Below are positions 11,126 to 11,878 of a stretch of DNA of 64,000 bases, piece by piece. The first letter of the stretch is position 1. The number at the start of each line of letters is the position of its first letter. The notes under the pieces were generated by a model. That model was not told the DNA's origin. It worked only from the letters and a program-made list of their open reading frames with translations, and did not search any database. The DNA comes from a virus, in IMG/VR virus record IMGVR_UViG_3300045988_163776, positions 1-64,000 of that record; one strand, written 5' to 3'. The position numbers were made by a program, and so were the translations under genes.

Positions 11126-11878
11126 TGTTGTCTGTGATTAAAAATTGGTTAATTACAGGAGACTGACTGCCATGGTCAATTTCAACATTTTTCTAATTTA
11201 CATTATAAATATAATCCAGAAGAAACAGCAATTATTATCCTTGGCGATGTGGGCTTAAATTTTAATTTAGACCATAATGATGATGATAGAAAAAAATATC
11301 TTAATGATTTTGGATTTAAAATTTATTGCGTCCGTGGAAATCATGAGTTTAGACCAGAGCAAGTATTTTTCCCAGATAAATTAAAATGGGATAAAGATAT
11401 TAAGACTAAAGTATATGTTGAAAATGAATATCCTAATATAAGATATTTTTGTAGCGGAGGAACATGGTGTCAAATTAAAGATATGAGAACTTTTATTATA
11501 GATGGAGCATATTCTATAGATGCTCAATATCGTAGATGGCAAGGCTGGCCTTGGAATCCGCAAGAGCAATTAAGTGAAAAAGAGAAAGAACATATAAAAC
11601 ATAGTTTTGACCTTATATCCCCAGATATAATACTTTCTCACACATGCCCAATTACTTGGAGACCTACAGATTTATTTTCGCCTGGAGTAGATCAAACAAC
11701 AGTAGATAGTTCAATGGAACTTTTCCTTGAGGAAATTGCAGAAATAGTAGATTATAAAGCTTGGTGCTGGGGCCATTTCCATGAAACACGAGAATATGAA
11801 GAGCTTAAAGGAAAGCCCGGCCGCAAACGTATGATGATATTTCAAGATTTTATACCGATAGAAGAGATAGTTAATTAA
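11125..11878 (+). CDS. PPP-family metallophosphatase interrupted at the GDxHGQ motif by a 4-nt insert (putative programmed bypass)
   Basis: ATG 11125 reads MLSVIKNWLITGD then TGA at 11164. The downstream frame continues CHGQFQHF...ILGDVG...GNHEF. GAC(11161-63)-T-GAC(11165-67): skipping 4 nt restores ITGDCHGQ. Confidence 0.5.

What the first reader, a model, noticed from the sequence alone, without database searches (positions are those of the whole stretch)
11158..11170. A 4-nt stop-containing insert splits a PPP phosphatase at its GDxHG motif
The gene reads ...WLITGD then UGA. The continuation CHGQFQHF...GDVG...GNHEF is in the +1 frame. The local sequence is GGA GAC UGA CUG CCA. A GAC take-off codon is followed by a stop, and an identical GAC landing codon lies 4 nt downstream. 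Re-pairing peptidyl-tRNA-Asp on the second GAC yields ITGD-CHGQ, the exact PPP-family GDxHGQ signature. Compare SDLHGQ in the paralog at 15171. Identical take-off and landing codons plus an adjacent stop are the hallmarks of programmed ribosomal hopping (as in T4 gene 60) or of prfB-like recoding. Alternatives are a GACT tandem duplication pseudogene or an assembly indel.
Basis: partly seen in the sequence, partly recalled or inferred. Interest (0 to 1): 0.85.

Follow-up and report, generated by a model that had tools for sequence, protein, structure and literature searches.

The report
Conserved 4-base recoding site in phage phosphoesterase
A phage phosphoesterase gene is split by four extra bases containing a stop codon, and because related phages keep the same interruption, a hairpin just before it and an intact gene on both sides, ribosomes very probably step over it, much as in the T4 gene 60 bypass.

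Summary
GTG 11134 opens MIKNWLITGD, then TGA (11164-66). The rest of a Metallophos enzyme (CHGQ...IVN, 236 codons) runs in the +1 frame from 11168.

It is not an assembly error or a pseudogene:
- The same interruption (GGN GAY TGA M TGY CAT, "type A") is in 8 distinct alleles, counting the window, from separate metagenomes.
- Changes in the ten leader codons are all synonymous except one Ile-to-Val change.
- dN/dS of the +1-frame body is 0.12-0.27 among close interrupted alleles.

A second form, "type B" (GGT TAG Y GAY, one codon earlier), is in about 20 more contigs. All complete bodies are open, with dN/dS 0.06-0.16.

Every interrupted allele examined has an 8-11 bp hairpin holding the start codon and ending 0-2 nt before the take-off codon. 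Intact alleles mostly lack it (p = 9e-10).

In relatives the interrupted 5' module lies at the 3' edge of a homing-endonuclease cassette inserted at the GD codons.

Only a 4-nt skip restores the G-D-x-H that every intact homologue keeps, so I favour a GAC-to-GAC hop. A +1 shift that adds one residue is not excluded. No experiment exists. I found no published description.

The parts
11118..11123 (+). Shine-Dalgarno AAGGAG for the leader ORF. It overlaps the last codons of the upstream RlaP-like gene (10304-11125).
   Evidence: The same AAGGAGTGATG motif precedes the start in all type A relatives.
11134..11166 (+). Frame-0 leader: GTG ATT AAA AAT TGG TTA ATT ACA GGA GAC TGA = MIKNWLITGD, then stop.
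   Evidence: Differences among relatives are synonymous (AAA/AAG, TTA/CTT, ATT/ATC, GGA/GGT, GAC/GAT) apart from one Ile-to-Val change. The peptide equals the N-terminus of intact homologues.
11132..11158 (+). Upstream hairpin: 5' arm CUGUGAUUAA (11132-41, contains the GUG start), loop AAAUUGG, 3' arm UUAAUUACAG (11149-58). It ends on the first base of the Gly codon, 2 nt before the take-off codon.
   Evidence: Predicted (-7.3 kcal/mol). In one search, all 14 interrupted alleles fold at -7.3 to -14.0, against a median of -3.1 in 190 intact alleles (Mann-Whitney p = 8.6e-10). The further type B alleles fold at -9.9 to -14.0. Compensatory changes are, and entirely different stem sequences occur in L105, L026, L269 and L280.
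11161..11163 (+). Take-off codon GAC. This is the Asp of G-D-x-H and sits in the P site when UGA is in the A site.
   Evidence: GAC or GAT in all type A alleles. Asp is invariant at this position in the family.
11164..11167 (+). The 4 extra bases TGAC: the in-frame UGA plus the following C, the same UGA-C signal as in prfB.
   Evidence: Absent from the intact relative L019, which reads GGA GAC TGC CAT. TGA is invariant, and the fourth base is C in 7 alleles and A in 1.
11165..11167 (+). Proposed landing codon GAC, overlapping the stop codon.
   Evidence: It is GAA in L010.
11168..11878 (+). Body of the metallophosphoesterase in the +1 frame: 236 codons, CHGQ...IVN, stop TAA 11876-78.
   Evidence: dN/dS against other interrupted alleles is 0.12 (L001) and 0.14 (L013). 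PHROG 1649 metallo-phosphoesterase.

Best explanation
This is a conserved, selected translational recoding site.

Proposed sequence of events:
1. Ribosomes start at GTG 11134 and make MIKNWLITGD.
2. They pause with peptidyl-tRNA-Asp on GAC (11161-63) and UGA followed by C in the A site.
3. Some ribosomes move 4 nt forward instead of terminating. The tRNA-Asp re-pairs with the overlapping GAC (11165-67).
4. Decoding resumes at UGC 11168 and gives ...ITGD-CHGQ..., the full-length phosphoesterase.
5. The forward movement is probably helped by the hairpin 11132-58. It ends next to the E site and must refold behind the ribosome.

Likely origin: in relatives the interrupted 5' module is the 3' end of a homing-endonuclease cassette inserted exactly at the GD codons. 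The 4 nt probably arose as an indel that spoils the endonuclease target, while recoding keeps the enzyme. The window has lost the adjacent endonuclease.

Shown: conservation, selection on both frames, the hairpin, and the cassette junctions.
Inferred: that translation crosses the site, the size of the step, the role of the hairpin, and the immunity function.
For: 1. Independent assemblies. The interruption is in L001, L010/L011, L012, L013, L015, L016/L017 and L018.

2. Selection. Substitutions in the leader are all synonymous except one Ile-to-Val change. dN/dS of the body among close interrupted alleles is 0.12-0.15 (window, L001, L013) and 0.27 (L016/L018), and all bodies are open.

3. A second insert. 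GGT TAG Y GAY lies one codon upstream in homologues that share as little as 42% identity. A pattern scan found 17 hits, and all were in this gene family. All complete bodies are open (245-273 codons) and dN/dS is 0.06-0.16.

4. The invariant motif. G9, D10 and H12 are invariant. All 198 distinct intact alleles have G immediately before D-x-H. Only a 4-nt skip restores this in both types, and also in L010, where a +1 reading gives GDECHG. The take-off codon varies synonymously (GAC/GAT), while the second codon varies non-synonymously (GAC/GAA).

5. The hairpin. It is present in every interrupted allele examined (14, more). The corresponding region of intact alleles is much less stable (p = 8.6e-10).

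6. Precedent for the hairpin's role. Upstream hairpins placed next to the E site stimulate +1 shifting at CUU UGA on 70S ribosomes (PMC6321510, PMC3639245).

7. The endonuclease link. The adjacent ORF matches PHROG homing and HNH endonuclease families. The filled/empty pair L105 and L061 has 90-95% identical flanks and a 180-nt insert at the GD codons. L120 shows the same layout and L010 against L020 is similar. Endonuclease adjacency is 5 of 13 interrupted against 8 of 233 intact alleles (p = 1.8e-4).

8. A close parallel. The T4 MobA/gene 60 cassette has the same overall layout (preprint 10.1101/2022.08.31.505936).
Against: - There is no experimental or proteomic evidence that ribosomes cross the site, and efficiency is unknown.
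- Type B has no matched landing codon. AGY pairs with tRNA-Gly(GCC) at only 2 of 3 positions, so a strict re-pairing hop cannot be the general rule.
- In type B the fourth base is always a pyrimidine. This also fits decoding of AGY as Ser after a +1 shift.
- The hairpin also buries the start codon. It occurs in a few intact, endonuclease-linked alleles (L057, L042), so its main role could be control of initiation.
- Some endonuclease-linked alleles have no interruption, so the 4 nt are not needed for coexistence with the endonuclease.
- All type A alleles share descent, as may the type B alleles, so the p-values overstate independence.
- The window itself has no endonuclease next to the gene.
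Confidence: 0.58

Rival explanations
1. A +1 frameshift at the stop codon without a hop, as in prfB or Ty3. With UGA (or UAG) slow to be read, the +1-frame codon is decoded: GAC here, AGY in type B. The products carry one extra residue, ITG-D-DCHG here and ITG-S-DxH in type B.
For: - The layout resembles prfB: an in-frame UGA followed by C, and an upstream duplex beside the E site.
- Under this model both types add the extra residue at the same place, between G and D.
- The fourth base in type B is always C or T, so AGY would always be Ser.
- S-D-x-H is common in the superfamily, for example in the paralogue at 15162.
Against: - It puts D or S where about 200 intact homologues always have G.
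- L010 would read GDECHG and lose the metal-binding Asp.
- The first Asp codon is conserved with synonymous variation, although under this model it would encode a dispensable extra residue.
- The P-site tRNA cannot re-pair in the +1 frame (ACU here, GUU in type B).
Confidence: 0.25
2. An inactivating scar. The 4 nt are a footprint of homing-endonuclease activity or a GACT duplication, the gene is dead, and the bodies look intact only because recombination with intact alleles keeps renewing them.
For: - Mosaic junctions lie at the site. L010 has a P0005-type body and L105 has an L061-type body.
- In one search one 5' module is joined to several different bodies.
- GACT-GACT is a perfect tandem duplication.
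Against: - dN/dS is 0.06-0.27 among close alleles that all carry the interruption, with dS up to about 1.
- No complete body has a stop in 234-273 codons of an AT-rich genome.
- The leader codons change almost only synonymously.
- The hairpin is kept by compensatory changes.
- The stop codon and its neighbours are invariant across nine divergent type B modules.
Confidence: 0.08
3. Termination followed by reinitiation, or an internal start, gives an N-terminally truncated enzyme. The leader is then only a small upstream ORF.
For: In the GGT variants a GTG overlaps the site, and gene callers used it (MTDCHG..., MIDCHG...).
Against: - The window and L001 have GGA, so GAG rather than GTG stands there.
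- Type B has no start codon near the junction.
- The product would lack the first beta strand, and the leader peptide would have no reason to match the family N-terminus.
Confidence: 0.03
4. A sequencing or assembly indel, or decoding of UGAC as a quadruplet by a special tRNA.
For: None for an indel beyond the general prior. For a special tRNA, only that the phage carries at least one tRNA and reassigns TAG.
Against: - The same 4 nt are present in separate assemblies from different projects, with surrounding substitutions.
- The only tRNA found in the window is a normal tRNA-Leu(UAA).
- Quadruplet decoding would add a residue inside D-x-H.
Confidence: 0.03

Closest known systems
Phage T4 gene 60 translational bypass carried by the MobA homing-endonuclease element (preprint 10.1101/2022.08.31.505936; review PMC5009743)
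   Same: - The take-off codon is followed directly by a stop, and in the window a matched landing codon follows.
- There is an mRNA stem-loop 5' of the site.
- In relatives the interruption lies at the 3' edge of an endonuclease cassette. That cassette carries its own copy of the replaced part of the gene and is inserted at a metal-binding motif.
- The endonuclease is often decayed or lost while the interruption stays.
   Different: - The gap is 4 nt, not 50.
- No take-off stem-loop containing the stop codon was found, and there is no long nascent-peptide signal (the peptide is only 10 residues).
- The landing codon overlaps the stop codon, and matching is not conserved.
- The target gene and the endonuclease family differ (a PD-(D/E)XK-like 'LIRIPY' type rather than MobA).
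- The target gene is not split into two separate proteins.
prfB (release factor 2) programmed +1 frameshift, CUU UGA C
   Same: - An in-frame UGA followed by C lies early in the gene.
- A duplex lies immediately upstream, beside the E site.
- The downstream frame is +1.
   Different: - There is no slippery P-site codon; GAC cannot re-pair as ACU.
- The upstream duplex is an mRNA hairpin rather than a conserved SD:anti-SD helix.
- A 1-nt shift does not restore the conserved motif, whereas a 4-nt step does.
- The gene is not a release factor, so there is no obvious autoregulation.
Synthetic 'stop-hops' in E. coli, with matched codons flanking a stop (Weiss et al. 1987, as described in PMC5009743)
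   Same: Peptidyl-tRNA leaves a codon 5' of a stop and re-pairs with a like codon 3' of it.
   Different: - Those are laboratory constructs with non-overlapping codons, where 9 nt give one amino acid.
- Here the landing codon overlaps the stop, so the step is 4 nt and changes frame.
- The review states that no natural stop-hop is known.
Upstream refolding hairpins that stimulate +1 frameshifting (PMC3639245, PMC6321510)
   Same: A stable hairpin ends next to the E site, 5' of a shift site whose A-site codon is a stop.
   Different: Those results come from engineered reporters. Here the hairpin is natural, includes the start codon, and its effect is untested.
'Saviour indel' with low-level compensatory frameshifting, such as herpes simplex thymidine kinase (PMC5009743)
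   Same: An indel that gives a selective benefit is tolerated because some ribosomes restore the frame.
   Different: Here the proposed benefit is resistance to a homing endonuclease, and the site carries a dedicated conserved stimulator.

Membership tests
Calcineurin-like metallophosphoesterase (Pfam PF00149) | Profile score above the curated cut-off | tested here: met
   The repaired protein scores 48.6 bits against a cut-off of 21.5 (E = 1.7e-12), matching residues 6-216. It also matches PHROG 1649.
Calcineurin-like metallophosphoesterase (Pfam PF00149) | Motifs D-x-H, G-D, G-N-H-E and G-H-x-H in one polypeptide | tested here: inconclusive
   All motifs are encoded. However, G-D lies in frame 0 and x-H-G in frame +1, so they join only if ribosomes skip 4 nt. 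This has not been shown experimentally.
GDxVDRG ... GNHE | tested here: not met
   Motif II is LGDVGLN, not GDxVDRG. A family profile gives only weak PP2A matches (E about 1e-3) over motifs I-III. The neighbours are RlaP, an RNase T-like exonuclease, RNA ligase and an AAA_33 kinase, which suggests an RNA-repair phosphoesterase.
Gene-60-type translational bypass | Matched take-off and landing codons | tested here: inconclusive
   Met in the window, L001, L013, L016 and L018 (GAC/GAC). L012 and L015 have the synonymous pair GAT/GAC. L010 has GAC/GAA. Type B has none.
Gene-60-type translational bypass | A stop codon immediately 3' of the take-off codon | tested here: met
   UGA is invariant in type A and UAG is invariant in type B.
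Gene-60-type translational bypass | A take-off stem-loop containing the stop, and a nascent-peptide signal | tested here: not met
   Folding of the window, L010, L008 and L105 shows no conserved structure over or 3' of the stop. The nascent chain is only 9-12 residues long.
Gene-60-type translational bypass | Carried by a homing-endonuclease element whose target it interrupts | tested here: inconclusive
   Cassette structure is shown in relatives: L105 against L061, L120, L008 and L010. It is not present at the window's locus. Cleavage specificity cannot be tested with these tools.
prfB-type +1 frameshift | A P-site codon able to re-pair in the +1 frame | tested here: not met
   GAC U gives ACU, and GGU U gives GUU.
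prfB-type +1 frameshift | UGA followed by C, and an upstream duplex beside the E site | tested here: met
   UGA C is in 7 of 8 type A alleles. The hairpin ends 0-2 nt before the P-site codon.

The most novel reading that the evidence does not exclude
This would be a family of miniature translational bypass cassettes: a hairpin, a take-off codon, a stop and one more base. They are spread by homing endonucleases into the metal-binding motif of a phage RNA-repair phosphoesterase.

If true, it would be the first natural short 'stop-hop' and the second endonuclease-linked bypass system after T4 gene 60.

In phages that reassign TAG to Gln, the UAG version (type B) could also act as a timer. The enzyme would be made only while UAG still stalls ribosomes, and would be switched off once the phage suppressor tRNA reads UAG in frame.
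Probability: 0.4. Interest if true: 0.9.

Novelty: new variant of a known kind. Interest (0 to 1): 0.8.

Why it matters
- Natural translational bypassing has rested mainly on T4 gene 60 and its homologues, plus yeast mitochondrial elements. The 2016 review states that no natural stop-hop is known.
- Here a compact signal of about 35 nt recurs in dozens of phage contigs in two independent forms. That makes the minimal requirements for forward ribosome movement at a stop codon directly testable with short reporters.
- It offers a second case in which a homing endonuclease and a recoding signal travel together. This supports the idea that recoding can evolve to protect essential motifs from endonuclease attack.
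- Gene callers truncate or miss these genes. Calls such as MTDCHG... or a 209-aa fragment are annotation errors.

Tried and rejected
- A megablast of 10300-12800 against GenBank phages found nothing. Distant tblastn hits only confirmed the family.
- The first type B pattern gave two chance hits, L023 and L024.
- A loose type A pattern gave 11 chance hits and only the known L001 contig.
- I looked for a phage tRNA with an expanded anticodon. The window has only tRNA-Leu(UAA).
- I looked for a conserved structure over or 3' of the stop, as in gene 60. None was found.
- I scanned the window for other genes with long start-less leaders. Nothing comparable turned up; three weak candidates are listed under things noticed.
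- The type B site shares GGTTAGCG with the endonuclease's own N-terminal coding sequence. The match is not general among these endonucleases, so I dropped it as coincidence.
- A SD-like AGGAG overlaps the site in the window, but relatives have AGGTGA or TGGT. It is dictated by the Gly-Asp codons, so I did not count it.
- A short N-terminal protein query was uninformative.
- Transcriptional slippage is rejected because there is no homopolymer run.
- A -2 shift is rejected because it adds two residues and the tRNA cannot re-pair in the GGT variants.

Full report
**1. The observation**

Window 11158-11170 is GGA GAC TGA CTG C. A good ribosome-binding site (AAGGAG, 11118-23) precedes GTG 11134. 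Frame 0 reads MIKNWLITGD and stops at TGA 11164-66.

The +1 frame is open from 11153. From TGC 11168 it encodes CHGQFQHF...LGDVGLN...RGNHE...GHFH...IVN, ending at TAA 11876-78. Its first possible start codon lies 32 codons into the open frame.

Deleting 4 nt gives a 246-aa protein. It matches Pfam Metallophos and PHROG 1649, and it aligns from residue 1 with intact homologues such as P0002 (MIKNWLLTGDCHGQ, 70% identity). The syntenic intact relative L019 reads GGA GAC TGC CAT GGT. The window therefore carries exactly four extra bases, and the local sequence is a perfect GACT-GACT repeat.

**2. Not an error and not a pseudogene**

The same interruption, GGN GAY TGA M TGY CAT GG ("type A"), is in L001 (IMG/VR, 94% amino-acid identity) and in Logan and ENA contigs L010/L011, L012, L013, L015, L016/L017 and L018.

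- Among these alleles the ten leader codons differ by AAA/AAG, TTA/CTT, ATT/ATC/ATA, GGA/GGT and GAC/GAT, plus one Ile-to-Val change. TGA never changes.
- The +1-frame bodies are all open, 234-260 codons.
- dN/dS between close interrupted alleles is 0.12 (window/L001), 0.14 (window/L013), 0.15 (L001/L013) and 0.27 (L016/L018).

Both sides of the interruption are therefore under purifying selection in lineages that carry it.

**3. A second, independent interruption**

In the same family, some alleles read ...ITG in frame 0, then TAG plus one base, and continue in the +1 frame with D-x-H ("type B", GGT TAG Y GAY). These include L008, L026, L081, L086, L105 and L120.

A pattern scan of IMG/VR returned 17 hits, all in this gene. 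Together they show nine different 5' modules: MINRVLITG, MINRWLITG, MISYWLVTG, MIKHWLVTG, MTKHWLVTG, MNEIKNWLVRG, MDKQIKYWLVRG, MSNKLKKWFVMG and MSYKNWLVRG.

- The Gly codon is always GGT, against 29% GGT in 198 intact alleles.
- The fourth base is always C or T.
- All complete bodies are open (245-273 codons), with dN/dS 0.06-0.16 among alleles sharing a module.

**4. A hairpin specific to interrupted alleles**

In every interrupted allele examined, the start-codon region pairs with the codons just before the site. The result is an 8-11 bp hairpin that ends 0-2 nt before the take-off codon. In the window it spans 11132-58.

- In one search, the MFE of the 41 nt before the Gly codon is -7.3 to -14.0 kcal/mol in all 14 interrupted alleles. 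The median is -3.1 in 190 intact alleles (Mann-Whitney p = 8.6e-10).
- The further type B alleles fold at -9.9 to -14.0.
- The closest "empty" relatives are L061 (-0.6), L020 (-1.2) and L019 (-4.5).
- Among modules that start with GTG, four pairs show changes on both sides, for example U-A to C-G, which involves two non-synonymous changes. Slid controls collapse.
- Modules that start with ATG form the stem from entirely different sequences.

Upstream hairpins placed beside the E site have been shown to stimulate +1 shifting at CUU UGA on bacterial ribosomes when RF2 is limiting (PMC3639245, PMC6321510).

Two caveats apply. The hairpin also buries the start codon. A few intact, endonuclease-linked alleles (L057, L042) have it too, so it may also or instead control initiation.

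**5. Link to a homing endonuclease**

The ORF directly upstream of the gene in L008 and L120, and downstream in L026, matches PHROG homing and HNH endonuclease families. It also has a weak DUF2726 match.

- L105 and L061 form a filled/empty pair with flanks 90-95% identical. L105 has 180 extra nt, made of four parts in order: the old 5' end (KNWLITGD), a decayed endonuclease remnant, a new ribosome-binding site, and a new 5' module ending GGT TAG C. Homology resumes at the Asp codon.
- L120 has the same layout with an intact endonuclease. Its old 5' remnant ends GGT GAT.
- L010 (type A) has an old start remnant and an endonuclease C-terminal remnant ahead of the window-type module. Its body is of the L020 type.
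- Endonuclease signatures lie within 1.2 kb of 5 of 13 interrupted alleles and 8 of 233 intact ones (p = 1.8e-4).

This closely matches the MobA element of T4 gene 60. That element consists of an endonuclease, an element-borne copy of the replaced gene segment, and the bypass at the element's 3' end, which protects against further cutting. The endonuclease is often lost afterwards (preprint 10.1101/2022.08.31.505936).

There are limits to this parallel:
- Some endonuclease-linked alleles are uninterrupted.
- The window has no endonuclease next to the gene. It has two copies of the family elsewhere, at 8039-8956 (-) and 32722-33492 (+).
- No cleavage data exist.

**6. Size of the step**

G9, D10 and H12 are invariant in the family, and all 198 distinct intact alleles have G directly before D-x-H.

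- A 4-nt skip gives ITGD-xHG in both types, and also in L010.
- A 1-nt shift gives ITG-D-DCHG in the window, GDECHG in L010 and ITG-S-DxH in type B. This places D or S at an invariant Gly position.
- In type A the first Asp codon varies synonymously (GAC/GAT), while the second varies non-synonymously (GAC/GAA). That is expected if the first is translated and the second is only a landing site.
- In the window, peptidyl-tRNA-Asp can re-pair perfectly 4 nt downstream.

I therefore favour a 4-nt hop. Against this, type B offers only 2 of 3 pairings (AGY with tRNA-Gly GCC), and its invariant pyrimidine equally fits a Ser codon read after a +1 shift. Only a junction peptide will settle the question.

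**7. Context**

The phage reassigns TAG. The + strand is tiled by long ORFs only if TAG is read as sense. Genes from about 21.8 kb onward carry many in-frame TAGs, and the RNA ligase gene has one at 13720-22. In the endonuclease N-terminus, TAG aligns with CAA (Gln) of homologues. TGA remains a true stop; the upstream gene ends with it.

The neighbours are an RlaP nucleotidyltransferase, an RNase T-like exonuclease, an RNA ligase, a NADAR protein, a second phosphoesterase and an AAA_33 kinase. This suggests an RNA-repair module, with the interrupted gene as an end-healing phosphoesterase (inference). It is not a PPP phosphatase in the strict sense.

**8. Novelty**

Full-text searches found no description of a recoded phage metallophosphoesterase. 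The recoding papers I opened do not mention one either. The 2016 review states that natural stop-hops are unknown.

I rate this a new variant of a known kind: programmed forward recoding at a stop, linked to a homing endonuclease. Interest is high, but it rests wholly on comparative evidence.

Noticed in passing
window 13063-14418 and roughly 21800-64000: The phage appears to read TAG as a sense codon, probably Gln. The RNA ligase gene has an in-frame TAG at 13720-22, and most ORFs from about 21.8 kb onward have 1-7 in-frame TAGs. Early genes have almost none. TAG aligns with CAA in homologous endonuclease N-termini.
   Followed up: partly
window 8039-8956 (-) and 32722-33492 (+): These are two copies of the same 'SCGC ... 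RFDF ... EYDGxxH ... LIRIPY' homing-endonuclease-like family that flanks the interrupted gene in relatives. They have 9 and 7 in-frame TAGs.
   Followed up: partly
window 10304-16894: This looks like an RNA-repair gene cluster: RlaP nucleotidyltransferase, the interrupted phosphoesterase, an RNase T-like exonuclease, RNA ligase, NADAR, a second intact phosphoesterase (15162-15839) and an AAA_33 kinase.
   Followed up: partly
window 46534-46899, 51857-52609 and 61230-62153: These open frames have 51, 32 and 25 codons before the first possible start codon. They could be chance, or other recoding sites such as a tail-chaperone frameshift.
   Followed up: no
L026 2347-3328: An endonuclease sits downstream of a type B phosphoesterase gene. 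It is followed by a duplicated copy of the gene's 3' end (...ELDWWLQRSPNF), which suggests a second homing site at the 3' end of the same gene.
   Followed up: no
L274, L275, L278, L279, L281 and L282: One identical type B 5' module (ATGAACGAGATTAAAAATTGGCTCGTTCGT GGT TAG C) is joined to several different gene bodies. This is as expected if the module spreads by homing and co-conversion.
   Followed up: partly
window 105-181: tRNA-Leu(UAA) is the only tRNA found in the window.
   Followed up: no
P0001, P0004, P0006, P0007, P0009 and P0010 in the protein database: Gene callers start these proteins at a chance GTG inside the Gly-Asp codons (MTDCHG..., MIDCHG..., MTECHG...). Public protein sets therefore hold systematically truncated versions of this enzyme.
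   Followed up: yes
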